A stretch of 64,000 nucleotides of DNA from Giardia intestinalis. Lineage: Eukaryota. Under the pieces are notes generated by a model. The model was not told where the DNA came from, did not search any database, and worked only from the letters and a program-made list of their open reading frames with translations. Positions 6,324-45,079 of the stretch are shown here, piece after piece; positions within the stretch are counted from its first letter, which is position 1, and every line of letters begins with the position of its first letter. The stretch lies in assembly GCA_000002435.2 (NCBI GenBank), contig CM018790.1; one strand, given 5' to 3'. The position numbers and the translations under genes are program-made.

Positions 6324-6385
6324 AGTCAATCTCAGAATCAATGATTGGATTAAAAAACCAAAAAGATCTTTTAAACAAATTTAGA
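6324..6385. promoter_or_regulatory. AT-rich bidirectional initiator region between the divergent GTPase paralogs.
   Basis: This ~60-bp spacer (ttaaaaaaccaaaaagatcttttaaacaaatttaga) lies between the two divergent ATGs. It has the Giardia-style AT-rich initiator context. Confidence 0.4.
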
Positions 6386-29377: not shown

Positions 29378-32300
29378 TCATAATAGTTTACACAGATGTT
29401 CAAAGAGATACTGCTTCAGCTGCTTCAAACATTGTACGTCAGATGGGAGTTGTCTATCCGTGACGGGTATCCTTATAGTGCTCAAGGCGACAGCAATGTC
29501 TCCAACCACTCCTACAACTTCAGCAATTGTGTGATCCAATCTGTACTTCTCTTTCACAAAGTCTATGAGTTCATCAACGAGCATTGCCTGCTTACGTCGG
29601 AGCTCTATCATGCCACGCCTCACTGCGTCAATGCTGGTGAGTAACTCCTCCATGGACTTCCGGGTACGTGCCTCCGCAGTGCCGAGGGTTTCCAGATAAC
29701 TGCGCAACTCGGCTTCGCGCTTCTCCAAAATAAGATGGCGCATGGTAGCGGAGCGAGGAAAAGTCTGATTGGCGTTCTCCTCCATTGAAATAATGGATGC
29801 AGAGGGTCTACTATTTGCTGTCTCAGTGGGCATATTATCGCGCTGCTGGGCAGAACGAAGGAGAAAGTCAAGGCATGATATCTTTTGCACTAAAGAATCG
29901 AGGATTTCTGACTGCTGAGCGGTTTTCTTGGTGACAGACTTGCCAGACAGCGCGGCTATCTCATCGTCTATCATTAGATAATCTGACTTAGGTGGTAGAG
30001 TAGCATATTCTGGGGGTGGCTTAAGATTATACCGCGGCGGACTGGATGTGAGCTCGTCAACGGCAAGCATGGTCTGTTGAGTTGTGAGCTTTTTGGCCCG
30101 TTCTTTGTCTATAAGAGAGAGCACTTCTTTTGCTTCATCTCGTTCGTCACGTGCCTGCTCATCACGCTCCTGCTTTATTTCTGAAAACAACCTTCCATCT
30201 TCACAACTGGAAATAGACGCAAATGAAGAGACGTTGACAAGGGAATTGAGTGTCTGAAGTATTCGAATGCTCTCTGATGTGTGGCCATAATCGTAATGTG
30301 TTTCTAGTTGATACCTAGTTTCGAGAAATTCTGGTAAAATGTCATTCATAAGATGCTTGAGAATTGTCGCTGCATCCGGTGTCTCATCTGTTCTGGAAGA
30401 AAGCATTGCCTTCAATTTTTGTAAGATTGGCATGTTACGAGATATGGGTATCTCTGATCGACTGGATGCTTCTAGAAGGTTCTTCAGATCGCTATCCATC
30501 CATGCATTGCTGTTGGACTCGCTGTACTCCTCAATTAGGAATCTTAGTGCTCTATCAAATCCGGTGTAAAATAAGCAATTCTCGTTGATCTCATTCTTTA
30601 GCCGTGTTATGTGCATACTTGATGGAAGAGAAAAGGGAAGATTGGACTGCCTATGAACGATAGAGCTTTCATAGATATTAACTGATTCTTGAGAAGTTAG
30701 TTTGGCAGAGTCGATATCCTTTTCTGCCTTCTGATGGACTACTCCTGGTTCTGCACCTGTAAGAATGTCACCTGAACTAGAAATGCCAGAGGCAGCAATT
30801 CCATTTGTGTACATAACTTTAGCGTGCTCCGGTATGCAAAATGGACGAATGGATTGTCCAATCCAAGAAGATAAGGCCTCGTGGGTCAAGTTTGGCATAA
30901 GATAGTTATCAATATAACTAGTAGGGAAGACGGCTGAAACAGTATCTGGGAAAGTGGTATGCGCCGCATGCCTATGCACAGCTCCAGAGCCGAAAGCCGA
31001 TAACCCCCCTCCTGGAAGTATTTGCAGTGATCCAGGAGCTGGTCCAACAGATCCACTTAATGAGTTAGAGTTCGTAGACGACACCTGATGTGCGCCTCCT
31101 TTTCCTTGTGAAACCAATGGGACTCCGTTGACATCGGACTGAAAGAGAGCATTAGAATCAGCCACTTGTCGCGAGCCTCGCGTGGATGCCTTGGCACGTC
31201 TGGCTTGAGGCTTTCTATTTGTCTCTTCACGCTGGGTAGTATTTGGGCTTTCCTCAAGTTTAATTGACGTATCTTGTGATAACGAGCCCCCTAGAGATGC
31301 CAGTCCTCGTCGACGACTTGTTCCAGACGTATTTTGAATACCGGAAGATGCAGCAGCAAGCGTTGTTGAACCAGCAGGCTTACCACGTGGTTTCCGTTTG
31401 CTTAGTGAAGTTTGTGGCGTATCCTGCAGAGGATTTTTGATATCCTCCAGATCTTTTCCTTGGTAATATTCTAAGTACACACGTGAATAAAAGGGGGCCC
31501 CATAAAACAACAAGTTTGCCCCCCGGTTCGAGCTACTCCATATGCGCGGAAAGATCGGCAGTAGAAGACGGTTACTATTCTCATATAGTCCTGCTGTTGG
31601 AAGATTAGCGAAGAAGCTTCTATAGTCTAGTGGCGATGGCACGGAGAAGTGCAGATCCATTGATATAAGTACACATTTTTCACTCACACTGGGACACTGT
31701 TCATCAGGGTATGAGTATCTGATGGTTGAAACGAGATCAAGAAGAGAAGTAAATGACCTGGTCTGCTTCTTTAAATTGGATTCAATGATATCAGAATCTC
31801 TTGTAGAATCTGTGCATTGAGGAGAGTATCTCCACTCAATTAAATTACTAGCAAAGTGCCAAGAAGAGCGGAGAGCATCTAGCTCATGCAGAAACTGCCT
31901 TGCAGCCAGCTGAATGGTATGATCCTGGTCTGTAGGAACTGATAGATCTGTGAGTACCTTCTTAAAATAATCTGAATAACTCGATGCTAACCGTTTAGAA
32001 TCTAAAAAAACTTCGGAAGCCTTATAATTCATAAAGTCAATCAGCTTGTGTAAATAAAACTGCACCATAGGATTGCCAAAGTCGGCAGAAATTCCGGCCG
32101 AGGCGTATGTGGAGAGGTCGCATTTCCAACACGGAGTATTTAGATTCTCAAACCCAGCTTGCTTTTGATGAGCAGAAGAAATCCAAAGGTTTGTTTGATA
32201 GAGGATCTGATCATATGGTGAGTTTAGCATTTCCATCTTACACGCCTTACAGTAAGGGCTGAAGCATTGGGGGCATAGATACATTTTTCCTTTAGCATTA

Positions 32301-33970
32301 AGGAGCAAGGCTATCTCTATTGTTGGAAAAATAGGCATGTTATGGTCGGAAGCTTTGTCCCCAAGAAACCGCTGAGCATCGAGTGTATACACATCTGAAA
32401 GCTCTCCAATAAAGAGATCAGAGGCTCCTAGCTCCTGTTGACATATGCTGCACAATACCGGTCGGATCATATTTGCCGTTGAGAACGTAACATGATAGCT
32501 GCACTCATATGATATGCTCGGTTGTTCTAGATCAAGTGCTTGCAAATAGAGCCCACTGGCTTCATGAAAAGAGCGTCGCTTTAATTGTGGCTCTAGATTG
32601 CCATCCGTATGGGCATCAGCTACACTAGAAGAAGTGCTGCTAATGGTAGATTTTGAGGAATACAGTTGTCCATCTATTACAGCCTCTTCTTTGGACTCGT
32701 CCTGTTCTTCTTCCAGATCCTGAAGCTTAACGTCTTGGAATGTCACAGAATGATCTCTGAGACTTATGTTTTGATTTGGAATCAGTGAGCACGTAAGAGA
32801 GCATTGAAAGAGATGTGCACTTTGAGGAATTTCCGCCAATGAAACTCTTCCAACCACGTGACAGGTACGAATGCAAGTTTCCGTGCAACAAACCTCAGGA
32901 TACAATAGATCCTCTAACCCCCCTTGTAAAGGTATGTGCAAATTGGCTACTTTGTCGTCCTGAAGATGTGCATTTATGACAAAAGTAAGGGGGACTCTTT
33001 GAACCCCTTTACAAACGGTGGGATCTGAGATAGGGAGGGTCAATAATATACCTGTTAAGAATACACTTAAAGAGGTTGTCAATTGTTCGGAGCGAACAAG
33101 AAGCTCTCCATCAAGAAAAACAGAGGGGAAAATGCGCCCATCTATTGCCCATATTCTCCGTACAAGGACAAGAACACTCGCTATAGTACTTTCTCTTCCT
33201 TGGGCCTCAGACATATAATGGTAAATCGCAGCGTCCCCTACAGATATATGGTCGTAGCAAAGATAATTGGTTGCCCAAAAGAGATCCATGCGGCGAAAGA
33301 GCCTACTAGCAGCCATGCTCACTGGTACATACTGATGATCGCCTACCAATTGTTGCAAAGGGGCGTCTATTAATGCGGTAAGACCCCGGTTCCCAAGGCC
33401 CCCAGGAAGAGAGTAGTCACAGGGAGTATCAGTAGATCTATTATCAGGGAGGTACTCTGCATTCATGGCCATGAGAGCTCTTTCATAACCCTTTATTATC
33501 GGTGGGAATACAGGAGTGTCCTGTGTCTGTGCATCTGTCAGTATCTTGAGCTTCAAAGACTCAAGGGAAGCAAGCATTGGAATAGTAACGTCTTTCCTAA
33601 CACTAGCTGTGCCAATAATAGATTGTGAATCGTTTTCTGATGCCTCCTCAACAGGAAAGTTAAAAGATTCTGTTTGGATTGCCGCAGGCGTCGAATTAAT
33701 GAGAATACCAGCCGTGCCAAATTCGCGAACACCAGAGGCATGGAGGACATGAGGCATGCCAAGGGGGAGTGCAGTGATGGGTGGATAAGAAGAGCCAACA
33801 AGAACAATATCGAAAATATGAGCACAAATGTCACGAAGAAGATCCTTAGTGGCTGGATTCTGCGATAACTGAATTAGTAGCGGAGTGCTGAGATGCTGTA
33901 TCTTAAAGTAAGGTACAGCTAGAGACTCTTTGGTTCGAAGTATATAGACAAAATATGTTAATTTGTCCAA
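29378..33970 (-). CDS. Large hypothetical protein (~1460-1530 aa) with a C-terminal coiled coil. The start is uncertain.
   Basis: Uninterrupted 4.6-kb ORF. The track start at 33970 is TTG. The first in-frame ATG is at 33757 (M72), and it has no AT-rich initiator in front of it. The protein has Cys-rich patches (CPQCFSPYCKACK, CSICQQ). No family was recognised. Confidence 0.45.
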   Translation of the reverse strand: MDKLTYFVYILRTKESLAVPYFKIQHLSTPLLIQLSQNPATKDLLRDICAHIFDIVLVGSSYPPITALPLGMPHVLHASGVREFGTAGILINSTPAAIQTESFNFPVEEASENDSQSIIGTASVRKDVTIPMLASLESLKLKILTDAQTQDTPVFPPIIKGYERALMAMNAEYLPDNRSTDTPCDYSLPGGLGNRGLTALIDAPLQQLVGDHQYVPVSMAASRLFRRMDLFWATNYLCYDHISVGDAAIYHYMSEAQGRESTIASVLVLVRRIWAIDGRIFPSVFLDGELLVRSEQLTTSLSVFLTGILLTLPISDPTVCKGVQRVPLTFVINAHLQDDKVANLHIPLQGGLEDLLYPEVCCTETCIRTCHVVGRVSLAEIPQSAHLFQCSLTCSLIPNQNISLRDHSVTFQDVKLQDLEEEQDESKEEAVIDGQLYSSKSTISSTSSSVADAHTDGNLEPQLKRRSFHEASGLYLQALDLEQPSISYECSYHVTFSTANMIRPVLCSICQQELGASDLFIGELSDVYTLDAQRFLGDKASDHNMPIFPTIEIALLLNAKGKMYLCPQCFSPYCKACKMEMLNSPYDQILYQTNLWISSAHQKQAGFENLNTPCWKCDLSTYASAGISADFGNPMVQFYLHKLIDFMNYKASEVFLDSKRLASSYSDYFKKVLTDLSVPTDQDHTIQLAARQFLHELDALRSSWHFASNLIEWRYSPQCTDSTRDSDIIESNLKKQTRSFTSLLDLVSTIRYSYPDEQCPSVSEKCVLISMDLHFSVPSPLDYRSFFANLPTAGLYENSNRLLLPIFPRIWSSSNRGANLLFYGAPFYSRVYLEYYQGKDLEDIKNPLQDTPQTSLSKRKPRGKPAGSTTLAAASSGIQNTSGTSRRRGLASLGGSLSQDTSIKLEESPNTTQREETNRKPQARRAKASTRGSRQVADSNALFQSDVNGVPLVSQGKGGAHQVSSTNSNSLSGSVGPAPGSLQILPGGGLSAFGSGAVHRHAAHTTFPDTVSAVFPTSYIDNYLMPNLTHEALSSWIGQSIRPFCIPEHAKVMYTNGIAASGISSSGDILTGAEPGVVHQKAEKDIDSAKLTSQESVNIYESSIVHRQSNLPFSLPSSMHITRLKNEINENCLFYTGFDRALRFLIEEYSESNSNAWMDSDLKNLLEASSRSEIPISRNMPILQKLKAMLSSRTDETPDAATILKHLMNDILPEFLETRYQLETHYDYGHTSESIRILQTLNSLVNVSSFASISSCEDGRLFSEIKQERDEQARDERDEAKEVLSLIDKERAKKLTTQQTMLAVDELTSSPPRYNLKPPPEYATLPPKSDYLMIDDEIAALSGKSVTKKTAQQSEILDSLVQKISCLDFLLRSAQQRDNMPTETANSRPSASIISMEENANQTFPRSATMRHLILEKREAELRSYLETLGTAEARTRKSMEELLTSIDAVRRGMIELRRKQAMLVDELIDFVKEKYRLDHTIAEVVGVVGDIAVALSTIRIPVTDRQLPSDVQCLKQLKQYLFEHLCKLL

Positions 33971-34735
33971 CGAACGTTGACCCGTAATGGCTTCCTTAGG
34001 TATATTGCCTATTGGAATTATCTGTGTGTCAGTTGGATGGTAAATGCTCGGCGGTCAATCCCTCGTCTAAAAGCCCGTTAATAGAAAGCCAAAAGAGGTA
34101 AGAAGTTGAATAGTTGGCAGGAATGCGTACCCTTTTGGCAGTTTCGTAGAGCGTGATAGGAGAGGAAATTGTTCTACCTTCGATCCGCTGGGCTAGTTTC
34201 CAGTAATCTTGAAGTATAGTGCCGCCGAGCTACAAACATACTCTTCCTAAATGGAGTTCTTTGTTCGAGTAATGGATAACGACAAATTCGCCTGGAAGGA
34301 AAACACCGTTACTCGTGTCAAAGAAAGTCATTTTCTTTTTTTGGTACTAACGGTGATCATAATAGTGCCTCTAACTCAGAGATAAGCCACTATGATATCT
34401 ACTGGAGTATTACTAGCTTAATTACGAGCATACTATTAGATATCTCTTGGCAGAAAGAGGCTGTCGCTTGTCAGTAGAAAAATAAGGAGGAAGGTTTATT
34501 TTCTCGAATTATCTGCGTAATTCTAGCGAGTTTTGTGTCTGTCGCCACTGAGCTTGTTGACTAGGTAGTCAATATAAGGCATGTTAGGTGCCATACATTG
34601 TTATCATGAGTTTTGGGCTGATTTCATCAATCTGATAGCGAATGACCTGTACATGTAATACACTGATATAGCTGCTTCACTATAGCCCAGGATGAAGAAT
34701 TAGACGCAGGGTTTTGCCGAGACATGTAGGCAAGC

Positions 34736-35988
34736 GCGCGGGGACGCCTGTCTGCAGGGGGCCGCAGCCCCAGGCGTCTCATCCCGGGCGCCGCACGCTG
34801 CACCCCTGGACTCGGTCCCTCGGGGCCCTGAGCATGCCTCCACACTGCGCGGGACAGAACCTGCTCACCAGGAGCTGAGGAGATGCCCCGCTCAGTGCCC
34901 ATGCCGACGACACATCCATCTTCCATAGTAGCAACAGTGACGCGACGGGGGTAGTCACAGAGGCGGCAGGCCTGGCGAAGCGATTGGCTCGACGGTCAAC
35001 ACTGACAAGTATAGGAACACAGAGGGGCAGGAGGCCTCCTTCCTGGCCGGTCGAAGGAGCTCCCAGGGCAACGGAGGGCCGAAGCTAGTGATGGCACTAA
35101 TCACTCGCCGTGCTGGTTGAGACGGACCCACACGCAACCCATGTGAATCCCTCGACAAGAGATGGGGCCCCTGGGGTGCTTGGCTGACAGAGGCGGACTG
35201 ATCCTGCCCACACCGGAGAGCGGTGACCTGGGCCACCTGCCGGGCGTCTGCCGCAGCAGCTGGCAGTGCCTGACACCCTCGAGTGGACAGGCGCCGGTTG
35301 TAGAGAGACGACCTCGATGAACCGGTCCTGACCGCTCCTGGTGCCTCAGACGACGCCTCTCAGAGAGGTGGCCCTGGACCGACGCCTCGGTGGACCGAAG
35401 CATCACCCAAGTGTGCTGTGCAGATGGACCAGCCCACACGTCACCGAGCCAGACGCACTGCACAGGGTGAGCGCCGACATGATCTCGTGCTGGGTGACGG
35501 ACCACCTGCAAGAGTGCACTGCGATCCATGAGTAGGAGGGCAAACCAGGGCCGGACCTCTCCCCCGACACAACGCATGGGAGTACTCTGCCGGCATCCGC
35601 GAACGCGTACTATGACTCCAAGATAGAGGCGCACGGGGAGCGCATCCTTGATAATGGAACAGATGGTGCCCTCCACGAGAAGATGAAGAGGCACCCCGAG
35701 GAACGAGGTAGGCACCCGGGGTCGTGGCGTATCCTATCTTCGTCATGAAGCATCAGCACCACAAAGCTACTCCGGAGTACATGGCCAGAGTCAATTGCTC
35801 TCGAGACTAGATCGCTGTGACCGACACAAGGCCCGAGACAACGGATGCTCAATAGATGTCAGACGATGGTTGACCCCGACGGGCCAGAGAGAAGAGACGC
35901 CCCGGAGCATATAGTGGAGCACCCAACGGCTCCCAGGCGGGATGCACAAGGCTCTTCTCCAGAGTGGGCGGCATCCGAGCTTCGGACT
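34736..35988. repeat. Left arm of a ~1.25-kb GC-rich inverted repeat. It is the reverse complement of 43168-44421.
   Basis: Six-frame ORFs inside it have near-identical counterparts on the opposite strand of the right arm:
- 35101-35715(-) = 43441-44055(+), identical 204-aa translation
- 35441-35746(-) = 43410-43715(+), identical
- 34955-35236(-) = 43920-44201(+), identical
- 35610-35852(-) = 43304-43546(+), identical
- 35845-36093(+) vs 42943-43311(-): one difference (H vs R) across the 47 aa shared before the arm boundary
- 34627-34926(-) vs 44230-44439(+): identical for 64 aa, then they diverge, which marks the repeat end
The arm is GC-rich, and its Arg/Pro/Gly-rich pseudo-ORFs do not look coding. 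Confidence 0.85.
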
Positions 35989-35998
35989 CTGGACGGGT

Positions 35999-38166
35999 TT
36001 ACTCGGACAGGAGCTGGCAAGCCGACCTTGATGAAGAAGAGCAGATCTCGTTTGAGAAGATGTCTACTATCTCTTTGCGATCCTTCTTCTTAGCGATATT
36101 GAGGGCAGTGGTACCAGGCGAGTGACCATGGCAGCTGCAGGTTGTCTTCAGATATTTCTCGTTTTCTTTAGGAAGTCTTGTACATTCCACGGTGTTGCTA
36201 TATGCTGCGTTCATAAGGGCGATCCCCCTTGGTCGTTTGCATGCCGCCTTCGCCCTTCAGCAGGGGCCTGACACACTCTGGATGGCCATTGCACACCGTC
36301 CATGTGAGGACAGTCTGATGCTCGTTGTTCTTTATACGAGCTTCTTGCTTGAGCAGCTCTACACTCCCTTCGTGCCCTCGTGCTGCTGCATACATGAGCT
36401 CCGTCCACCCTGAGATACTGCTCTCATACTCCATCAAAAGCTCAACGTGCCCAATATAGTCCACCAGGGGGTCATTGGAACGATTGCACCGTGCCGCGAA
36501 TACGAGAGCGGTCCAACCGCCTACTTTCTCTCCCTTTTCGTGTTCCACTAGCAGTTCTACTATTTCTGCGTATCCATTGCCGCAGCCACCATCAGAGCTG
36601 TTCCTTTGCGCATGTACCATCCGCTTCTTGTGACCTCTTTGTATGTTTTCCTCCCCCTCTGGATGGGTAAGAGTGCTTTTACAGCCCCCGCGTCGTTTCT
36701 ATTGACAGCTCGCATGAGCGCCGTGACGCCGTTCTCATCGGTTGGGTCGATGGCCTCCACCACGGTTCCATGTCCTGCCTCTGCCGCAATCACCAAGGCC
36801 GTCTTGCCTTCGCTGCCGATCCGGTCCTTCTCATATGGGACCAGAAGGGAGGCAGCTCTTGCATAGTCCTCCTCTGTGGCGATCATCAGGTAGTCCAGCC
36901 ATTCTTGTCCTGGAGGCCCCTCTCCTCCCCAACAAGCAACTCGACGGGACTGACGTGCCCCTGCTCGTCGCGCTGACCAACGCCGAGTCTTTCTTCAAGC
37001 AGCATCCAGACGGTCTCCGTGCTATTTGTGTGCAGCACGCATCAGCCCGGGCAACAAAAAGAGGCTGGACTGAGGGTCAGTCGTGTTCATCCTGTCACCG
37101 AACTGTGCAAGCCTATTCTCCAGTGCCTTACTCATGGCTAGATGCTCCTTACCTTGGTCTTCAAGTGCGTCGATCTTAGTAGATCTAGTCTTAACATCCT
37201 CTTCCAGCAACGCGATCCTGGCGTTAGCGCCATTCAGCGCAGCCTCCAAGGATCCGCACTTATACTTCAGCATCACGCACTGACCTCCCAACTCACCAAC
37301 TGGGATGTCGAATGTAGCGAGCGTCTCGTGCAGCTCCCTGGCCGTCGGCCTCCTCTCTGGCTCCAATACGAATATCCGCTCCAGAACACTCTTTATGAAG
37401 CCATCAGTGACACCGCTCAGGTCCGGCCTCCACCCATCGATGAAGACCTCTGCTGGCTCCTTGCCCCCCAAGAAGTCCGGTCTCCTCAGAGTAGTAAGTT
37501 CATAAATGATGACCCCGAGGCTCCATACATCAGAAGCGGGGCTGGCCTCATTACGGAGGAGCGCCTCGGGGGCCATGTATACTGCCGTGCCTGCAATGGT
37601 GCTCCCGCATCTCAGGGCGTCCTTACAGAGGCCGAAGTCGGCGATGACGAAGCGCTCTCCGTCTGCGCTGATGAGGACGTTGGCAGGCTTGAGGTCGCGG
37701 TGGACGAGGCCCTTAGCACCTACCCCACTAAGGCCGTGGAGGTAGGCGAGGGCGGCGGCGACCTGCTTCATGACAGAGAGGATCATAGCGATAGGGACGG
37801 GGATCTTCCTTCGTTTGTGCTCGGTGAGGAGGTTGTCAAGAGTCCTGCTGTGCCGGTCCGTGACGACGTAGATGAGGCCCTCGTCTTCAATCACTTGATG
37901 ATACTTGAGGACCCGGGTGAAAGATGTTAAGAAGGGCGGCCAGCCTACGCTTAATAGCATCCACACCGTGCTGATCCAGACCGTCGAGCCGGATCTCCTT
38001 CACAGCAAGGTGGGGGCATCCCCTGAGAGAGTAGATAACACTGAAGGCCCCCGCTGAGCACGGGGATGCCACCAGCGCCCATCGGCTCTGCAAAGCCGCT
38101 AACTGCACTGTTACTAGCAACTCCTAGGGCGCCCTCTGCGGTGGCTGGGACAGGGAGTGGAGTCAA
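35999..38166 (-). pseudogene. NEK-family Ser/Thr kinase fused to ankyrin repeats (Protein 21.1-like). It is fragmented by several frameshifts.
   Basis: The parts found, all on the minus strand but in different frames:
- glycine loop and VAIK region: AGAFSVIYSLRG...HLAVKEI, in ORF 37887-38120(-)
- intact catalytic core: LVHRDLKPANVLISADGERFVIADFGLCKD...APE, in 37022-37966(-)
- three consecutive ankyrin-repeat ORFs: 36560-36886(-), 36198-36620(-), 35999-36214(-), with TALVIAAEAGH and TALMRAVNRND motifs
That makes at least four frame changes, and the 3' end abuts the left inverted-repeat arm. Indel-type assembly errors in GC-rich homopolymer runs are the alternative explanation. Confidence 0.55.
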
Positions 38167-38754
38167 CAGCCGCAGCTGATTTTAACTGCAATCCGGAGCC
38201 ATCCTTTGGAGTGGCCTTGGCTACTACCCGAGCAAGGCGCCCAGTGTGAGCTGTCGATGGCAGGCCAAGGAGAGGCATACTAACGGCTTGTATGGCCTTA
38301 AGCAGGCCGGATCCTGGAGGCCGACGCGGAGTGCCCCAGACAGAGTATGCCGATCAGGGACCACACTGAGCTCTGGATGCATCACTAGGGAGAACTCTCG
38401 TCATGTTATCCACAACCAGCCATCGTCTCCGGACGGTCGAGAAGTAGGCGCGGCTTACCCATGAGACCTCTGAGCGCACCTGCAGGCGGGGTCAGTGATA
38501 CAGTGACAGCAATGTACAGGAGTGCGCCCCGAGCAATCACTCCACAAGAGAGGTGCGGTCTGAGTCTGGCCCTCACTGGTCCTGTTCCTATGGAAGTCAG
38601 AGAGAACTACACTATCAGCTGGCCTCTGGTTGGTGTGCTCCTATCTCGTCCTTCTCCGGTCCAACTGATCAAGAGAGCAAGAGCGGCTGTCTCTCACTGC
38701 TCGCGGTCAATGCACAAGTCTGATGAAAGAGCAGTGGCACGTGTACTCCGGCTA

Positions 38755-41700
38755 ATGTTGGTAGGATTTCTCCTAGTTTGTGCAACAGTGCTGGCAAAGG
38801 ACAGTGGGAAGACCGCGCAGTGTGACGGAGACAATGGCTACACGCTCCAGGGCGACGCGTGCACCAAGGCGGCTCCTGACAACGCGTGCCAGACCCTGGG
38901 AACCGCCGGGTGTGCCACGTGCGACTCGGGTAGCGGCGGGGAAACCTGTCTTACATGCAAGAAGGACGCGCAATACGTCGCGGCCAACAAGAAGAGCTGC
39001 AAGGATGCCTGCGACACGAGCGGAGGAGAGGTAATAGACCAGGCTGCCAGCCCGGCGAAGGTCTGCAAGTGTGACGGAGACAATGGCTACACGCTCCAGG
39101 GCGACGCGTGCACCAAGGCGGCTCCTGACAACGCGTGCCAGACCCTGGGAACCGCCGGGTGTGCCACGTGCGACTCGGGTAGCGGCGGGGAAACCTGTCT
39201 TACATGCAAGAAGGACGCGCAATACGTCGCGGCCAACAAGAAGAGCTGCAAGGATGCCTGCGACACGAGCGGAGGAGAGGTAATAGACCAGGCTGCCAGC
39301 CCGGCGAAGGTCTGCAAGTGTGACGGAGACAATGGCTACACGCTCCAGGGCGACGCGTGCACCAAGGCGGCTCCTGACAACGCGTGCCAGACCCTGGGAA
39401 CCGCCGGGTGTGCCACGTGCGACTCGGGTAGCGGCGGGGAAACCTGTCTTACATGCAAGAAGGACGCGCAATACGTCGCGGCCAACAAGAAGAGCTGCAA
39501 GGATGCCTGCGACACGAGCGGAGGAGAGGTAATAGACCAGGCTGCCAGCCCGGCGAAGGTCTGCAAGTGTGACGGAGACAATGGCTACACGCTCCAGGGC
39601 GACGCGTGCACCAAGGCGGCTCCTGACAACGCGTGCCAGACCCTGGGAACCGCCGGGTGTGCCACGTGCGACTCGGGTAGCGGCGGGGAAACCTGTCTTA
39701 CATGCAAGAAGGACGCGCAATACGTCGCGGCCAACAAGAAGAGCTGCAAGGATGCCTGCGACACGAGCGGAGGAGAGGTAATAGACCAGGCTGCCAGCCC
39801 GGCGAAGGTCTGCAAGTGTGACGGAGACAATGGCTACACGCTCCAGGGCGACGCGTGCACCAAGGCGGCTCCTGACAACGCGTGCCAGACCCTGGGAACC
39901 GCCGGGTGTGCCACGTGCGACTCGGGTAGCGGCGGGGAAACCTGTCTTACATGCAAGAAGGACGCGCAATACGTCGCGGCCAACAAGAAGAGCTGCAAGG
40001 ATGCCTGCGACACGAGCGGAGGAGAGGTAATAGACCAGGCTGCCAGCCCGGCGAAGGTCTGCAAGTGTGACGGAGACAATGGCTACACGCTCCAGGGCGA
40101 CGCGTGCACCAAGGCGGCTCCTGACAACGCGTGCCAGACCCTGGGAACCGCCGGGTGTGCCACGTGCGACTCGGGTAGCGGCGGGGAAACCTGTCTTACA
40201 TGCAAGAAGGACGCGCAATACGTCGCGGCCAACAAGAAGAGCTGCAAGGATGCCTGCGACACGAGCGGAGGAGAGGTAATAGACCAGGCTGCCAGCCCGG
40301 CGAAGGTCTGCAAGTGTGACGGAGACAATGGCTACACGCTCCAGGGCGACGCGTGCACCAAGGCGGCTCCTGACAACGCGTGCCAGACCCTGGGAACCGC
40401 CGGGTGTGCCACGTGCGACTCGGGTAGCGGCGGGGAAACCTGTCTTACATGCAAGAAGGACGCGCAATACGTCGCGGCCAACAAGAAGAGCTGCAAGGAT
40501 GCCTGCGACACGAGCGGAGGAGAGGTAATAGACCAGGCTGCCAGCCCGGCGAAGGTCTGCAAGTGTGACGGAGACAATGGCTACACGCTCCAGGGCGACG
40601 CGTGCACCAAGGCGGCTCCTGACAACGCGTGCCAGACCCTGGGAACCGCCGGGTGTGCCACGTGCGACTCGGGTAGCGGCGGGGAAACCTGTCTTACATG
40701 CAAGAAGGACGCGCAATACGTCGCGGCCAACAAGAAGAGCTGCAAGGATGCCTGCGACACGAGCGGAGGAGAGGTAATAGACCAGGCTGCCAGCCCGGCG
40801 AAGGTCTGCAAGTGTGACGGAGACAATGGCTACACGCTCCAGGGCGACGCGTGCACCAAGGCGGCTCCTGACAACGCGTGCCAGACCCTGGGAACCGCCG
40901 GGTGTGCCACGTGCGACTCGGGTAGCGGCGGGGAAACCTGTCTTACATGCAAGAAGGACGCGCAATACGTCGCGGCCAACAAGAAGAGCTGCAAGGATGC
41001 CTGCGACACGAGCGGAGGAGAGGTAATAGACCAGGCTGCCAGCCCGGCGAAGGTCTGCAAGTGTGACGGAGACAATGGCTACACGCTCCAGGGCGACGCG
41101 TGCACCAAGGCGGCTCCTGACAACGCGTGCCAGACCCTGGGAACCGCCGGGTGTGCCACGTGCGACTCGGGTAGCGGCGGGGAAACCTGTCTTACATGCA
41201 AGAAGGACGCGCAATACGTCGCGGCCAACAAGAAGAGCTGCAAGGATGCCTGCGACACGAGCGGAGGAGAGGTAATAGACCAGGCTGCCAGCCCGGCGAA
41301 GGTCTGCAAGTGTGACGGAGACAATGGCTACACGCTCCAGGGCGACGCGTGCACCAAGGCGGCTCCTGACAACGCGTGCCAGACCCTGGGAACCGCCGGG
41401 TGTGCCACGTGCGACTCGGGTAGCGGCGGGGAAACCTGTCTTACATGCAAGAAGGACGCGCAATACGTCGCGGCCAACAAGAAGAGCTGCAAGGATGCCT
41501 GCGACACGAGCGGAGGAGAGGTAATAGACCAGGCTGCCAGCCCGGCGAAGGTCTGCAAGTGTGACGGAGACAATGGCTACACGCTCCAGGGCGACGCGTG
41601 CACCAAGGCGGCTCCTGACAACGCGTGCCAGACCCTGGGAACCGCCGGGTGTGCCACGTGCGACTCGGGTAGCGGCGGGGAAACCTGTCTTACATGCAAG

Positions 41701-42798
41701 AAGGACGCGCAATACGTCGCGGCCAACAAGAAGAGCTGCAAGGATGCCTGCGACACGAGCGGAGGAGAGGTAATAGACCAGGCTGCCAGCCCGGCGAAGG
41801 TCTGCAAGTGTGACGGAGACAATGGCTACACGCTCCAGGGCGACGCGTGCACCAAGGCGGCTCCTGACAACGCGTGCCAGACAGAGAACTGCCAGGAATG
41901 CACTAGCAAAGGCACGGCCAACGAGGTCTGTACAAAGTGTACTTCTACTCATTACTTGACACCAACAAACCAGTGCGTACCTGACTGCGCAGCCATCAGC
42001 GGATACTACGGAGATACTGACAAGAAGTGTAAGCCATGCAGCCTTGAGTGTGCTGAGTGCGTTGGGCCGGCCAACAATCAGTGCAGTGCCTGTCCTGCTG
42101 GCAAGAAACTGACATATACAGATGACAGCCATCCTAATAACGGAGGCGCCTGCGGGGATGCGTGCAAAGTGTCTGCAGATGGCACTGGCTGTGAGACATG
42201 TGGGGCCCAAATAGGAGGAACTGCATACTGCTCAAAGTGCAAGACCTCTACTCAGGCCCCCTTGAACGGCAACTGTGCGGCCAATTCACGAGCAGCCTTC
42301 TGTGCAACAATCACAAATGGGGCCTGTACACAATGCAATGAGGGTTACTTCCTCAAGGACGGCGGCTGCTATCAGACAGATAGACAGCCTGGTAAGCAGG
42401 TGTGTAGTAGTGCACAGGGAGGAACATGTCAGACGTGTGCCAACGGACTGCAGGCACAAGGTGGGGCCTGTGGGGAGTGCCATTCTACTTGTGCTACGTG
42501 CTCGACTGCAGGTGCGGCTGATAAGTGTAAGACCTGTGCCACTGGGTATTACAAGACAAGCGATAGTGATGGCCCGTGCATGAAGTGCTCAGAGAAGATC
42601 TCCGGATGCAAGCAATGTGTGTCGTCATCTGGCAGCTCAGTCATATGTTTAGAATCAGAAGTAGGCACTGGTGGAAGCGTCAACAAGAGTGGCCTCTCCA
42701 CGGGGGCCATAGCCGGTATCGCTGTTGCTGTGATTGTTGTTGTAGGTGGTCTTGTTGGTTTCTTGTGTTGGTGGTTCCTGTGCAGAGGAAAGGCGTAG
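38755..42798 (+). CDS. Variant-specific surface protein (VSP) with 12.3 identical 83-aa tandem repeats.
   Basis: The C-terminus is a TM helix plus the canonical tail ...GLVGFLCWWFLCRGKA*. The protein is CXXC-rich throughout. The signal peptide MLVGFLLVCATVLA begins at the ATG at 38755. The track ORF extends a further 98 codons upstream, to 38461, with no signal-like sequence. An AGTAAAC poly(A) signal lies 13 nt past the stop. Confidence 0.9.
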   Translation: MLVGFLLVCATVLAKDSGKTAQCDGDNGYTLQGDACTKAAPDNACQTLGTAGCATCDSGSGGETCLTCKKDAQYVAANKKSCKDACDTSGGEVIDQAASPAKVCKCDGDNGYTLQGDACTKAAPDNACQTLGTAGCATCDSGSGGETCLTCKKDAQYVAANKKSCKDACDTSGGEVIDQAASPAKVCKCDGDNGYTLQGDACTKAAPDNACQTLGTAGCATCDSGSGGETCLTCKKDAQYVAANKKSCKDACDTSGGEVIDQAASPAKVCKCDGDNGYTLQGDACTKAAPDNACQTLGTAGCATCDSGSGGETCLTCKKDAQYVAANKKSCKDACDTSGGEVIDQAASPAKVCKCDGDNGYTLQGDACTKAAPDNACQTLGTAGCATCDSGSGGETCLTCKKDAQYVAANKKSCKDACDTSGGEVIDQAASPAKVCKCDGDNGYTLQGDACTKAAPDNACQTLGTAGCATCDSGSGGETCLTCKKDAQYVAANKKSCKDACDTSGGEVIDQAASPAKVCKCDGDNGYTLQGDACTKAAPDNACQTLGTAGCATCDSGSGGETCLTCKKDAQYVAANKKSCKDACDTSGGEVIDQAASPAKVCKCDGDNGYTLQGDACTKAAPDNACQTLGTAGCATCDSGSGGETCLTCKKDAQYVAANKKSCKDACDTSGGEVIDQAASPAKVCKCDGDNGYTLQGDACTKAAPDNACQTLGTAGCATCDSGSGGETCLTCKKDAQYVAANKKSCKDACDTSGGEVIDQAASPAKVCKCDGDNGYTLQGDACTKAAPDNACQTLGTAGCATCDSGSGGETCLTCKKDAQYVAANKKSCKDACDTSGGEVIDQAASPAKVCKCDGDNGYTLQGDACTKAAPDNACQTLGTAGCATCDSGSGGETCLTCKKDAQYVAANKKSCKDACDTSGGEVIDQAASPAKVCKCDGDNGYTLQGDACTKAAPDNACQTLGTAGCATCDSGSGGETCLTCKKDAQYVAANKKSCKDACDTSGGEVIDQAASPAKVCKCDGDNGYTLQGDACTKAAPDNACQTENCQECTSKGTANEVCTKCTSTHYLTPTNQCVPDCAAISGYYGDTDKKCKPCSLECAECVGPANNQCSACPAGKKLTYTDDSHPNNGGACGDACKVSADGTGCETCGAQIGGTAYCSKCKTSTQAPLNGNCAANSRAAFCATITNGACTQCNEGYFLKDGGCYQTDRQPGKQVCSSAQGGTCQTCANGLQAQGGACGECHSTCATCSTAGAADKCKTCATGYYKTSDSDGPCMKCSEKISGCKQCVSSSGSSVICLESEVGTGGSVNKSGLSTGAIAGIAVAVIVVVGGLVGFLCWWFLCRGKA
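38821..41882 (+). repeat. 249-bp tandem repeat array inside the VSP coding sequence: 12 complete copies plus a 74-bp partial copy, all apparently identical.
   Basis: tgtgacggagacaatggc recurs at 38821, 39070, 39319 and so on to 41809, exactly 249 nt apart. Every off-frame and antisense ORF in the track repeats with identical translation at a 249-nt period. The repeat unit encodes CKCDGDNGYTLQGDACTKAAPDNACQTLGTAGCATCDSGSGGETCLTCKKDAQYVAANKKSCKDACDTSGGEVIDQAASPAKV. Confidence 0.9.
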
Positions 42799-42810
42799 AT
42801 GTACTTAGAT

Positions 42811-42817
42811 AGTAAAC
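42811..42817 (+). promoter_or_regulatory. Giardia polyadenylation signal AGTAAAC downstream of the VSP stop codon.
   Basis: The sequence is aggcgTAGatgtacttagatAGTAAACacg. AGTRAAY is the established Giardia poly(A) signal. VSP genes characteristically carry it within about 20 nt of the stop. Confidence 0.5.
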
Positions 42818-43167
42818 ACGTCACTAGTGGTGCAGCTGCCGACAAGCGGGTGCGCCTTATGTACGTTGCTAGCCTGCAACCGGGAGAAGGGGTGGCCGCT
42901 TCCCTGCCCCCGAGCGTGCTCTGCACAGCGCCGTTGACACCGTCATGGCCGAGAACGGTGCACTCGATATCCTGCGCCTGCCGATGAGCTGCATCGATGC
43001 GAGGAGAGCAGCCCAGCTCCACAGCTCGTCTGCTTCTGATGGGATCTATTAGCACGCGTAGGCAGCCCGAACAGTCTTATTTTTGCTTCGGCGAACTGGG
43101 CAAGATCGGAGTTTAATGGCAGTTGAGGCAAGTGAAGGCAGGCCCCTTGCTCCCAGGCAGTGTTCAG

Positions 43168-44421
43168 AGTCCGAAGCTCGGATGCCGCCCACTCTGGAGA
43201 AGAGCCTTGTGCATCCCGCCTGGGAGCCGTTGGGTGCTCCACTATGCGCTCCGGGGCGTCTCTTCTCTCTGGCCCGTCGGGGTCAACCATCGTCTGACAT
43301 CTATTGAGCATCCGTTGTCTCGGGCCTTGTGTCGGTCACAGCGATCTAGTCTCGAGAGCAATTGACTCTGGCCATGTACTCCGGAGTAGCTTTGTGGTGC
43401 TGATGCTTCATGACGAAGATAGGATACGCCACGACCCCGGGTGCCTACCTCGTTCCTCGGGGTGCCTCTTCATCTTCTCGTGGAGGGCACCATCTGTTCC
43501 ATTATCAAGGATGCGCTCCCCGTGCGCCTCTATCTTGGAGTCATAGTACGCGTTCGCGGATGCCGGCAGAGTACTCCCATGCGTTGTGTCGGGGGAGAGG
43601 TCCGGCCCTGGTTTGCCCTCCTACTCATGGATCGCAGTGCACTCTTGCAGGTGGTCCGTCACCCAGCACGAGATCATGTCGGCGCTCACCCTGTGCAGTG
43701 CGTCTGGCTCGGTGACGTGTGGGCTGGTCCATCTGCACAGCACACTTGGGTGATGCTTCGGTCCACCGAGGCGTCGGTCCAGGGCCACCTCTCTGAGAGG
43801 CGTCGTCTGAGGCACCAGGAGCGGTCAGGACCGGTTCATCGAGGTCGTCTCTCTACAACCGGCGCCTGTCCACTCGAGGGTGTCAGGCACTGCCAGCTGC
43901 TGCGGCAGACGCCCGGCAGGTGGCCCAGGTCACCGCTCTCCGGTGTGGGCAGGATCAGTCCGCCTCTGTCAGCCAAGCACCCCAGGGGCCCCATCTCTTG
44001 TCGAGGGATTCACATGGGTTGCGTGTGGGTCCGTCTCAACCAGCACGGCGAGTGATTAGTGCCATCACTAGCTTCGGCCCTCCGTTGCCCTGGGAGCTCC
44101 TTCGACCGGCCAGGAAGGAGGCCTCCTGCCCCTCTGTGTTCCTATACTTGTCAGTGTTGACCGTCGAGCCAATCGCTTCGCCAGGCCTGCCGCCTCTGTG
44201 ACTACCCCCGTCGCGTCACTGTTGCTACTATGGAAGATGGATGTGTCGTCGGCATGGGCACTGAGCGGGGCATCTCCTCAGCTCCTGGTGAGCAGGTTCT
44301 GTCCCGCGCAGTGTGGAGGCATGCTCAGGGCCCCGAGGGACCGAGTCCAGGGGTGCAGCGTGCGGCGCCCGGGATGAGACGCCTGGGGCTGCGGCCCCCT
44401 GCAGACAGGCGTCCCCGCGCG
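43168..44421. repeat. Right arm of the ~1.25-kb GC-rich inverted repeat. It is the reverse complement of 34736-35988.
   Basis: See the left arm. Identical six-frame translations are found in opposite orientation. The boundaries are set where the paired ORFs 42943-43311(-)/35845-36093(+) and 44230-44439(+)/34627-34926(-) stop being identical. Confidence 0.85.
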
Positions 44422-44593
44422 GGTGCTCACGAACGTTGAAAGAGAATATTTACAGTTGAACCCTCAGCTTACATCAGCGTTCTTCAGGGTAGTCATCTTT
44501 TAATAGAGCATATTATAGAGATATCTACGCATATGACTAGCATGTGACTATAGATAGGACCAATTCAATCCTTTAAAAAGATCATCCTTCAAA

Positions 44594-45055
44594 ATGACTA
44601 TCTTCGATCTTCTGTTCAATTCTGAGACTAGTAACGTTAAATCAGTCCATAGGGCTCCTCATACACTTATCTTTCTTGCATTTGTCTGTACAAAATGCGG
44701 CGAAAAGACGAAAGAGATAGGAATATGCCCCGAGGATAGGGTAGAAATACCTAATTCTAAGGGTGACACCAACATGCACTACAAGTGCAAAGGATGTAGT
44801 TCCAGATGTAATGTAGATATCATTTCCGAAGCCACCTTTGCCCCAGAAGACGCAGGTCCAACTGGAGCACGCGTTGCCACGGTCGAGTGTCGAGGATCGC
44901 TGCAGCCACTAAAATGGTACTATGATCAGTTGATCGTCACGTCTGCCAGTGGCACAGAGCTAAAGGCTTCTGGCAGTGACCCAGACTGGTGTGATTATGA
45001 TGAACTACTAGAGGAGCAGGTGGAGCTGACCGAGATGAGGTTTACTGTGCAGTAA
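44594..45055 (+). CDS. CXXC-motif zinc-binding protein (CZIB/C1orf123, DUF866 family).
   Basis: Blocks align to human CZIB:
- CTKCGEK ~ KCGNCGE
- YKCKGCSSRCNVDI ~ QKCKLCARENSIEI
- ATVECRGSLQPLKW ~ VEFECRGLEPVDF
- DWCDYDELLEEQVELTEM ~ DWTDYDEKAQESVGIYEV
The size also fits, 153 aa against about 160 aa. Confidence 0.7.
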   Translation: MTIFDLLFNSETSNVKSVHRAPHTLIFLAFVCTKCGEKTKEIGICPEDRVEIPNSKGDTNMHYKCKGCSSRCNVDIISEATFAPEDAGPTGARVATVECRGSLQPLKWYYDQLIVTSASGTELKASGSDPDWCDYDELLEEQVELTEMRFTVQ

Positions 45056-45079
45056 ATGAGAGCAGGAACTCGTGATATT

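What the first reader, a model, noticed from the sequence alone, without database searches (positions are those of the whole stretch)
34736..44421. Near-identical 1.25-kb GC-rich inverted repeats bracket a cassette holding a VSP gene and a decayed NEK gene
Two arms, ~34736-35988 and ~43168-44421, are reverse complements of each other. Paired six-frame ORFs give identical translations, and the only visible difference is one codon (H vs R). They enclose 7.2 kb holding a fragmented NEK-ankyrin gene and a VSP gene with perfect tandem repeats.

The arms are GC-rich and look non-coding, with Arg/Pro-rich pseudo-ORFs and no initiator contexts. Each arm is bounded on the outside by an AT-rich spacer that is unusually long for this genome (33971-34735 and 44422-44593).

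Such high identity between arms points to recent duplication or ongoing gene conversion.

Structurally this layout could allow recombinational inversion or excision and replacement of the VSP cassette. It could also form a cruciform or long hairpin. If read-through transcription crosses both arms, it would produce self-complementary RNA next to a vsp gene. That matters because vsp silencing has been linked to dsRNA and RNAi in the literature.

I am not aware of a described flanking inverted-repeat architecture for vsp loci, so this could be a locus-specific mechanism for antigen switching or for homogenising the locus.
Basis: partly seen in the sequence, partly recalled or inferred. Interest (0 to 1): 0.8.

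Follow-up and report, generated by a model that had tools for sequence, protein, structure and literature searches.

The report
Ancient inverted repeats bracketing Giardia VSP island
Two near-identical 1.26-kb inverted repeats really do bracket a surface-antigen (VSP) gene in Giardia, but they are copies of a non-coding repeat family scattered through the genome, and this inverted pair is old and kept identical by gene conversion; no antigen-switching role was shown or could be tested here.

Summary
The arms are 34735-35994 and 43162-44421: 1260 nt, 3 mismatches, 7167 nt apart. The window is Giardia intestinalis WB. The arms have no coding signal and no Rfam or Pfam match.

1. The duplication is not recent. 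The same inverted repeat (IR) sits between the same two core genes in isolates DH (assemblage AII) and P15 (assemblage E), with the same outer boundary in WB and P15. Arms are 99-100% identical within each genome. Between genomes they are about 87% (WB/DH) and 52-77% (WB/P15). This is concerted evolution.

2. The arms are not locus-specific. They belong to a dispersed GC-rich family of elements about 1.1 kb long with imperfect terminal inverted repeats. Some copies are solo, lying between housekeeping genes. The WB and DH arm cores are different mosaics of this family, which points to ectopic conversion.

3. The "unusually long AT-rich spacer" on the left mostly holds exon 1 and the known 220-nt intron of GL50803_35332.

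4. Inverted duplications at vsp loci are already described. There the arms contain the vsp genes.

A different VSP lies next to the conserved 3' flank in DH. In the DH contig that flank joins the opposite arm. This fits inversion, but misassembly cannot be excluded.

The dsRNA and switching roles remain untested.

The parts
29378..34331 (-). Left core gene GL50803_35332. Exon 2 is 29378-34021. The 220-nt intron is 34022-34241 (GTATGTT...ACTGACACACAG). Exon 1 is 34242-34331.
   Evidence: The spliced CDS translates exactly to KAE8302140.1, 1577 aa. The intron is reported in PMC3610916. Its sequence is 97-99% conserved between WB and P15.
34332..34734 (.). True intergenic spacer (403 nt) between the ATG of GL50803_35332 and the left arm.
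   Evidence: About 99% identical in DH and roughly 75-85% in P15.
34735..35994 (+). Left IR arm (1260 nt, 63% G+C, non-coding). Positions 34735-35065 are an outer segment shared only with DH, P15 and the L026-type copy. Positions 35066-35994 are the core shared with all family copies. Positions 35967-35991 (GGCGGCATCCGAGCTTCGGACTCTG) are the inner terminal-inverted-repeat remnant of the family and coincide with the inner IR boundary.
35999..37999 (-). Decayed NEK kinase/ankyrin pseudogene. The kinase fragment is 37022-37966. The ankyrin fragments are 36560-36886, 36198-36620 and 35999-36256, in different frames. Its stop codon (35999-36001) lies 5 nt from the end of the left arm.
   Evidence: Pfam Pkinase 1.8e-31 and Ank_2 2e-16. 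Frames and stop codon. A paralogous block exists in DH contig 23 (L025), 87-89% identical.
38755..42798 (+). VSP gene (1347 aa, identical to KAE8302141.1 / XP_037901708.1). It has a signal peptide, 12.3 perfect 249-bp repeats (38819-41882), a CRGKA tail, and a poly(A) signal AGTAAA at 42811-42816.
42799..43161 (+). VSP 3' flank (363 nt). It is 97-100% identical in DH, where it follows a different VSP and is joined to the left arm in the DH contig.
43162..44421 (-). Right IR arm, the reverse complement of the left arm with 3 mismatches (43247, 43246, 43164).
44422..44593 (.). Spacer (172 nt) between the right arm and the CXXC gene.
44594..45055 (+). Right core gene, a CXXC zinc-binding protein (153 aa). 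It is transcribed divergently from GL50803_35332.
   Evidence: Pfam PF05907, 1.2e-28. Synteny with DH and P15.

Best explanation
**What it is.** The two arms are inverted copies of a dispersed, non-coding, GC-rich Giardia repeat family. Full-length members are about 1.1-1.2 kb and have imperfect terminal inverted repeats (54 nt measured without gaps in one copy, perhaps about 100 nt with indels by eye). The arms form the two borders of a small variable-gene island (VSP plus NEK pseudogene). This island sits in the divergent intergenic region between two conserved core genes, GL50803_35332 and a CXXC-protein gene.

**Shown.**
- The inverted pair is old. It predates the split of assemblages A and E.
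- Its arms are kept 99-100% identical within each genome while diverging strongly between genomes (concerted evolution).
- The arm cores in WB and DH are different mosaics of family members from other loci.

**Inferred.**
- Frequent arm-to-arm gene conversion keeps the arms identical.
- Occasional ectopic conversion from dispersed copies is copied into one arm and then spread to the other.
- As 1.26 kb of perfect inverted homology, the arms are substrates for homologous recombination. That recombination can flip the 7.2-kb island and helps exchange what lies between the arms. DH has a different VSP on the same conserved 3' flank.
- The architecture is most likely a by-product and facilitator of recombination at a variable-gene island. 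It is probably not a dedicated switch or a dsRNA device.
For: **IR exact and real.**. Short-read contigs break at the arm edges.

**Same IR in other isolates.**
- DH: L011 and L008.
- P15: L010 and L007.
- P15 arms are at least 1799 nt and 99.4% identical.
- DH arms are identical over about 500 nt of the 600 nt available.
- The outer boundary falls at the same GCAAGCGCGCGG in WB and P15.

**Arms cluster by genome.** WB left/right 99.8%, DH left/right 99%, P15 left/right about 100%. WB against DH is 87%. WB against P15 is about 52% in a global alignment and 71-77% in local alignments.

**Flanks are far more conserved than the arm core.** Between WB and DH the flanks outside and inside the arms are 97-100% identical, while the arm core is 63-90%.

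**Mosaic test.** Across 35030-35810 each arm is closer to paralogues at other loci than to its orthologue. WB reaches 96% to L026 and DH reaches 96% to L022, against 41-89% between WB and DH.

**Dispersed family.** 31 spurious-ORF clusters; every hit that carries a source name is Giardia. Copies were examined at L021, L022/L023, L024, L025, L026 and L027.

**Terminal inverted repeats.**

**Non-coding.**

**VSP turnover.** The VSP C-terminus is 45% identical between WB and DH, while the 3' flank is 97-100% identical.

**Literature.** Large near-identical inverted duplications and structural variants are common at Giardia vsp loci (PMC2996952, PMC7000408, PMC7048089).
Against: - No long read or contig spanning a whole arm was available for WB or any other long-read assembly. 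Inversion is therefore inferred, not shown.
- The single DH contig that implies the flipped orientation crosses a repeat whose two copies are essentially identical, so it may be a mis-join.
- DH and P15 are draft assemblies. The DH right arm is known for only 600 nt.
- Family copy number and association with vsp loci rest on about 7 contexts, not the whole genome.
- G+C content of the IR arms (0.61-0.64) is barely above that of solo copies (0.59-0.61). There is no clear biased-conversion signature.
- The origin of the family (transposon, decayed gene, or 3' flank of a duplicated NEK unit) is unresolved.
Confidence: 0.72

Rival explanations
1. A recent, lineage-specific inverted duplication. 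The arms are identical simply because they are young.
For: 99.76% arm identity with abrupt boundaries. 6.9% of the WB genome is recent duplication (PMC7000408).
Against: The same IR, with the same outer boundary, is present in DH and P15. The arms differ by 13% to about 50% between genomes but by 1% or less within each genome.
Confidence: 0.04
2. Assembly artefact: a collapsed or chimeric join in the PacBio assembly.
For: None specific. Repeats are a known source of misassembly.
Against: More than 20 short-read assemblies carry the flanking genes. All those inspected (one representative per group of similar contigs) end 31-90 nt inside the arm on both sides, as expected for a true two-copy repeat. 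Two independent draft genomes carry both arms.
Confidence: 0.02
3. A hairpin or dsRNA-generating device. Transcription through both arms, or convergent transcription of them, yields self-complementary RNA that feeds RNAi-type vsp silencing.
For: The arms are perfectly complementary. Pervasive and bidirectional transcription is described in Giardia (PMC3610916). dsRNA from repeats has been reported (PMC1950533).
Against: - The arms share no sequence with the VSP.
- The arms are 7.2 kb apart.
- The VSP has its canonical poly(A) signal 345 nt before the right arm.
- Family members also occur as single copies between housekeeping genes (L024).
- There is no covariation support for a conserved RNA structure.
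- No expression data could be examined.
Confidence: 0.06
4. A composite-transposon-like unit. Two copies of a TIR-bearing DNA element mobilised, or still mobilise, the VSP/NEK cassette between them.
For: Family members have terminal inverted repeats of roughly 54-100 nt. Copies are dispersed and sit in intergenic regions. The arms are in inverted orientation with the same end facing the cargo.
Against: - No transposase was found anywhere nearby.
- No target-site duplication was found. The 11-nt direct repeat seen at first lies inside an exon and is absent from P15.
- The WB arms lack the family's outer TIR.
- The island occupies the same site in assemblages A and E.
- The paralogous VSP-NEK block (L025) has only one element copy.
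Confidence: 0.08
5. A programmed invertible switch: site-specific inversion that turns this vsp on or off.
For: The IR-flanked cassette geometry. The DH contig implies the opposite orientation.
Against: - The VSP keeps its own upstream region inside the island, so flipping does not obviously change promoter linkage.
- The arms are long dispersed repeats, not short recombinase sites.
- No recombinase gene was found.
- vsp control is reported as epigenetic or post-transcriptional (PMC2996952, abstract).
- The DH join may be a misassembly.
Confidence: 0.03

Closest known systems
Identical inverted vsp gene pairs of Giardia WB (vsp1267-type; Adam et al. 2010, PMC2996952; Xu et al. 2020, PMC7000408)
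   Same: Same organism and same class of locus. Both have kilobase-scale, near-identical inverted arms with abrupt divergence points and a spacer of 2-12 kb. One described pair even has a NEK kinase between the arms.
   Different: In the described pairs the arms are the vsp genes themselves plus 139-729 bp of flank, and the spacer is reported as non-coding DNA or a reverse-transcriptase remnant. Here the arms are non-coding dispersed repeats, and a single VSP lies in the spacer.
Large palindromes homogenised by arm-to-arm gene conversion (primate sex-chromosome palindromes, plastid inverted repeats; from general knowledge)
   Same: Arms are over 99% identical within a genome. An orthologous palindrome is present in diverged lineages, with arms that differ between lineages. 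This is the signature of concerted evolution.
   Different: - The scale here is much smaller.
- The arms additionally exchange sequence with dispersed paralogues, so they diverge faster than their flanks rather than slower.
- No clear GC-biased conversion signal was seen.
Inversions generated by ectopic recombination between inverted copies of non-coding TIR or foldback elements (Galileo and BuT5 in Drosophila; PMC3573991, PMC3698922)
   Same: A non-coding dispersed element of about 1 kb with terminal inverted repeats, present as two inverted copies at the ends of a segment that may be inverted between strains.
   Different: No transposase partner, TSDs or insertion polymorphism are known for the Giardia family. 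Inversion here is only suggested by one draft contig.
Giardia non-LTR retrotransposons GilM/GilT/GilD (Genie 1/2; from general knowledge; RT remnants between VSP pairs noted in PMC7000408)
   Same: Dispersed repeats associated with vsp regions. Genie 2 / GilD is degenerate and, from memory, is reported to carry inverted repeats.
   Different: No reverse-transcriptase or endonuclease similarity was found in the arms or in the 9.4-kb paralogue-bearing contig. There is no poly(A) tail and no tandem or telomeric arrangement here. No direct sequence comparison with GilD was possible.

Membership tests
Giardia identical inverted vsp pairs | Two (near-)identical vsp ORFs in head-to-head or tail-to-tail orientation | tested here: not met
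   There is only one VSP between the arms. The arms have no VSP or CXXC content and no Pfam VSP hit.
Giardia identical inverted vsp pairs | Near-identical arms ending at abrupt divergence points, separated by a few kb | tested here: met
   1260-nt arms with 3 mismatches, random similarity beyond both ends, and a 7167-nt spacer.
Palindrome with concerted evolution of arms | An orthologous IR in diverged lineages, with arms more similar within a genome than between genomes | tested here: met
   matrix: within-genome 99-100%, WB/DH 87%, WB/P15 52-77%. The flanks are the same core genes and the outer boundary is shared.
Palindrome with concerted evolution of arms | GC-biased conversion signature: arms richer in G+C than non-palindromic paralogues | tested here: inconclusive
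   IR arms 0.61-0.64 against solo copies 0.59-0.61.
TIR DNA transposon / MITE-like element | Terminal inverted repeats at both ends of the element | tested here: inconclusive
   Family copies have imperfect TIRs. L027 has 54 nt at 76%. L022 has 25 nt plus 20 nt at 80-85%. L024 has 17 nt. The WB arms retain only the inner TIR.
TIR DNA transposon / MITE-like element | Target-site duplications and filled or empty site polymorphism | tested here: inconclusive
   No TSD was recognised. The candidate ACGAACGTTGA pair was rejected. Empty sites could not be fetched.
TIR DNA transposon / MITE-like element | A related autonomous element encoding a transposase | not tested
   This needs a whole-genome search. 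Nothing was found in the loci held.
Non-LTR retrotransposon (GilM/GilT/GilD) | Reverse transcriptase or endonuclease ORF, or a remnant of one | tested here: not met
   Pfam at E up to 1 on the 10 longest arm ORFs and the 10 longest L026 ORFs gave no RT hit.
rDNA or known structured RNA | A match to an Rfam covariance model | tested here: not met
   No match at E up to 1 over 33000-46000. No covariation in the family core.
Hairpin-RNA / siRNA-producing inverted repeat | Transcription across the arms and small RNAs mapping to them | not testable with these tools
   No expression data were accessible.
Site-specific invertible DNA switch | Both orientations present within a clonal population, and a dedicated recombinase | not testable with these tools
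   No long reads were available. No recombinase was seen in the window ORFs, which were not searched exhaustively.

The most novel reading that the evidence does not exclude
The arms may be members of a previously undescribed TIR-bearing, non-coding DNA element family in Giardia, a genome thought to hold only three non-LTR retrotransposon families. These elements would mark the borders of variable-gene islands and act as portable recombination modules. Inverted pairs of them would flip islands, and ectopic exchange among copies would swap VSP/NEK cassettes between islands. This would be a DNA-level route to diversifying the vsp repertoire, acting alongside epigenetic switching.
Probability: 0.12. 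Interest if true: 0.7.

Novelty: new variant of a known kind. Interest (0 to 1): 0.4.

Why it matters
Giardia antigenic variation is usually described as purely epigenetic or post-transcriptional. How the vsp repertoire itself is reshuffled between isolates is poorly understood.

This locus gives a clean, small example with four features:
- a VSP island bounded by an inverted repeat;
- the repeat is conserved across assemblages A and E;
- the arms are homogenised within genomes and mosaic between genomes;
- the VSP cargo differs between two sub-assemblages that are otherwise about 99% identical in the flanks compared here.

It is directly testable with existing long-read data and with PCR.

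There are also practical consequences. Such repeats break short-read assemblies exactly at island borders, and they can create false or real inversions in comparative maps.

The repeat family itself may be an unrecognised repeat class in a genome considered almost free of transposons. Its nature is unresolved.

Tried and rejected
1. **rDNA or known ncRNA.** Rfam gave nothing at E up to 1.

2. **Coding arms.** Pfam gave nothing on the 10 longest arm ORFs. The homologous 'proteins' in the database are spurious ORFs whose frames shift between copies.

3. **Retroelement remnant.** No reverse-transcriptase hit was found in the arms or in the 9.4-kb paralogue contig L026.

4. **Conserved RNA structure in the family's most conserved 250 nt.** The RNAalifold covariation term was +0.89, which is no support.

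5. **Target-site duplication.** An 11-nt direct repeat, ACGAACGTTGA, occurs at 33970 and 44430. The first copy lies in exon 2 of GL50803_35332, and the motif is missing from the P15 right flank, so this is coincidence.

6. **GC-biased gene conversion as the cause of the arms' G+C richness.** Solo copies are nearly as GC-rich.

7. **Orientation in other long assemblies.** The protein-anchored look-ups returned only short-read contigs that stop at the arms. The Pollo et al. supplementary GFFs are truncated and lacked the flanking genes.

8. **An S/MAR paper and searches for Giardia TIR or DNA-transposon literature.** Nothing relevant was found. Adam et al. 2013 was not held.

9. **A methyltransferase-like motif glimpsed in the inner part of the P15 arm.** There was no Pfam support.

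Full report
**1. Identity of the window**

The VSP ORF from 38755 and the neighbouring 783-aa ORF are exact matches to KAE8302141.1 and KAE8302143.1 of Giardia intestinalis WB clone C6. Both lie on a 1.54-Mb contig of the 2020 PacBio reference.

**2. The observation**

The repeat finder reports one inverted repeat. A base-by-base comparison and blastn set the arms at 34735-35994 and 43162-44421. Each arm is 1260 nt, and they are 7167 nt apart. There are three mismatches: 35909/35910 against 43247/43246, and 35992 against 43164. Similarity falls to random immediately outside both ends. No further copy exists in the window.

Composition and content:
- The arms are 63% G+C against 49% for the window.
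- Between the arms lies a frameshifted NEK kinase/ankyrin pseudogene on the minus strand. Pfam gives Pkinase 1.8e-31 and Ank_2 2e-16. Its last stop codon is at 35999-36001, 5 nt from the arm.
- Also between the arms is a 1347-aa VSP with 12.3 perfect 249-bp repeats, a CRGKA tail and an AGTAAA signal at 42811-42816.

**3. Not an artefact**

Short-read assemblies of independent sequencing runs carry the right-hand genes. Those inspected all end 31-90 nt inside the right arm. Contigs carrying the left-hand gene end 56 nt inside the left arm. This is the behaviour expected of a true two-copy repeat.

**4. The left 'AT-rich spacer' is largely a gene part**

Aligning WB with P15 showed that 33900-34340 is 97-99% conserved, more than the coding sequence around it. 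On the minus strand there are three signals:
- an ATG at 34331;
- a Giardia 5' splice site, GTATGTT, at 34241;
- a 3' site, ACTGACACACAG, ending at 34022.

Splicing out these 220 nt gives a CDS that translates exactly to the annotated 1577-aa GL50803_0035332. This intron is one of the few known in Giardia (PMC3610916). The real spacer to the arm is 403 nt. An 11-nt direct repeat that I first took for a possible target-site duplication lies in exon 2 and is absent from P15. I reject it.

**5. The IR is ancient and evolves in concert**

I fetched the orthologous flanks from DH (assemblage AII) and P15 (assemblage E) through their copies of the two core genes.

Both genomes carry arm homologues at both sides, next to the same genes.
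- In P15 the two arms match each other over at least 1799 nt at 99.4%.
- In DH the 600 nt available for the right arm are identical to the left arm over about 500 nt.
- The outer boundary falls at the same GCAAGCGCGCGG in WB and P15.

In a joint alignment the arms group by genome:
- WB left/right: 99.8%
- DH left/right: 99%
- P15 left/right: about 100%
- WB against DH: 87%
- WB against P15: about 52% globally, 71-77% in local segments

Between WB and DH the sequence just outside the arms, the first 56 nt of the arm, its last roughly 120 nt and the VSP 3' flank are 97-100% identical. The arm core is only 63-90% identical.

A recent duplication cannot produce this pattern. Repeated arm-to-arm conversion can.

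**6. The arms belong to a dispersed family**

A search with the longest, spurious, arm ORF found 31 clusters. Every hit that carries a source name is Giardia. They include seven DH loci and an old WB ORF, GL50803_30984. In the protein alignment the frames shift between copies, as expected for non-coding DNA.

I retrieved six further contexts:
- **L021:** between a DEAD helicase and a cysteine-rich surface-protein gene.
- **L022/L023:** between an ankyrin gene 3' end and a CPSF-like gene.
- **L024:** a solo GC island of about 1 kb between two housekeeping genes, with no VSP within 10 kb.
- **L025:** a paralogous block in DH, 87-89% identical to window 38798-35369, containing a VSP 5' end, the NEK pseudogene and the element.
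- **L026:** a 9.4-kb gene-less contig at double coverage holding the closest paralogue, 83% identical.
- **L027:** between a VSP cluster and ribosomal and other core genes.

Copies are about 75-83% identical to the WB arm. Full-length copies have imperfect terminal inverted repeats:
- L027: 54 nt ungapped, extending to roughly 100 nt with indels by eye;
- L022: 25 nt plus 20 nt.

The inner end of the WB arms coincides with one such terminus.

In four of five informative cases the same end of the element faces the variable genes. In four loci (WB left arm, L021, L022, L025) the element directly follows the ankyrin (NEK) 3' end. The family is thus often, but not always, at the border between a variable-gene island and core genes.

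**7. Mosaic arms**

I computed a sliding-window comparison. Across 35030-35810 the WB and DH arms are each closer to paralogues at other loci than to each other:
- WB reaches 96% to L026.
- DH reaches 96% to L022.
- WB against DH is 41-89%.

Shared indels tell the same story. The simplest reading has two steps. Ectopic conversion from dispersed copies enters one arm. Arm-to-arm conversion then spreads it to the other.

**8. Cargo turnover and a hint of inversion**

In the DH contig the left arm runs straight into the sequence that lies inside the right arm in WB. That sequence is the 363-nt VSP 3' flank, 97-100% identical, followed by a VSP C-terminus that is only 45% identical to the WB VSP.

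So the VSP differs between two sub-assemblages whose flanks at this locus are about 99% identical. Its 3' flank also appears attached to the opposite arm.

The DH arms are essentially identical, and the assembly (as I recall, built from 454 reads shorter than an arm) could have mis-joined here. I therefore treat inversion as suggested, not shown.

Pollo et al. predicted 162 intra-isolate inversions in WB, and structural variants enriched for VSPs (PMC7048089). Their held tables did not cover this locus.

**9. What the arms are not**

- No Rfam hit.
- No Pfam hit.
- No reverse-transcriptase remnant, including in L026.
- No covariation-supported RNA structure in the most conserved 250 nt.
- No clear G+C excess over solo copies.

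**10. Comparison with what is known**

Near-identical inverted duplications are a described feature of Giardia vsp loci. Adam et al. list 14 identical inverted vsp pairs with 2-4 kb spacers and abrupt divergence points (PMC2996952). Xu et al. list 19 duplicated VSP pairs, one with a NEK kinase between them (PMC7000408).

The present locus differs in two ways. The repeated unit is a non-coding dispersed element, and the single VSP lies between the arms.

Functionally the closest analogues are palindromes homogenised by gene conversion, and inversions caused by ectopic recombination between inverted non-coding TIR elements (Galileo and BuT5).

**11. Verdict**

The repeat is real, old and actively homogenised. 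Its arms are ordinary members of a dispersed repeat family that tends to border variable-gene islands.

The most likely role is as a passive recombination substrate that permits inversion and cargo exchange. Nothing supports a dedicated dsRNA or switching function, and it could not be tested here.

Confidence levels:
- Anatomy and evolutionary pattern: high.
- Recombination consequences: moderate.
- Any regulatory role: low.

Noticed in passing
window 34022-34331 (minus strand): Exon 1 (90 nt) and the 220-nt cis-spliced intron of GL50803_35332 lie inside what looked like an empty AT-rich spacer. The intron is 97-99% identical between assemblages A and E. That is more conserved than the flanking coding sequence, which hints at a constrained intron, for example an embedded RNA or a structural requirement for splicing.
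   Followed up: partly
L026 (ENA ERZ28528424 NODE_3463), whole 9361 nt: A 9.4-kb contig at about twice the coverage of a neighbouring single-copy contig. It has no ORF longer than 295 codons and no Pfam hit, and it carries the closest paralogue of the WB arm at 5453-6434. A gene-less stretch of this size is unusual for Giardia.
   Followed up: partly
L025 8395-11757 (DH contig AHGT01000023): A paralogous copy (87-89% identical) of the block 'VSP 5' end - NEK pseudogene - element' lies next to a TFIIB gene. This explains why the old WB annotation had two near-identical (same 90% cluster) 108-aa ORFs, GL50803_113470 and GL50803_102617. The pseudogene was apparently duplicated already in its decayed state.
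   Followed up: partly
L027 1-549 and 2195-2741 (DH contig AHGT01000077): A 550-nt inverted repeat (96.9% identical) containing VSP 3' ends. It is a classical inverted vsp pair, a few kb from another copy of the arm family.
   Followed up: no
L010 3648-5048 and L007/L010 arms (P15): In P15 the IR arms extend at least 550 nt further inwards than in WB. The island holds an apparently intact 685-aa NEK kinase and a 466-aa ORF with no Pfam match and no DNA-level counterpart (blastn) in the WB window.
   Followed up: partly
L005 1-24, L006 1-25 (Logan contigs): These contigs begin with Illumina adapter sequence fused to window position about 44463, 130 nt upstream of the CXXC gene ATG. This is probably adapter read-through at a fragment or transcript end.
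   Followed up: no
window 38773-42210 (minus strand) and 38461-38754: A 1145-codon antisense ORF runs through the VSP repeat array, and a 98-codon in-frame extension lies upstream of the VSP signal peptide. Both are most likely by-products of a stop-free repeated unit and GC-rich sequence, not genes.
   Followed up: no
Pollo et al. supplementary GFF (PMC7048089, file 3), contig utg731 332834-338858: In assemblage B (GS) the ORF homologous to the NEK fragment maps twice in inverted orientation, 5.4 kb apart. This suggests an inverted duplication that includes the NEK gene in that lineage. Whether it is this locus is unknown.
   Followed up: no
window 23478-25922 (minus strand): The 814-aa ORF in the conserved gene block has a faint precomputed Pfam VSP hit in its DH and P15 orthologues. 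It may be a cysteine-rich non-VSP protein.
   Followed up: no
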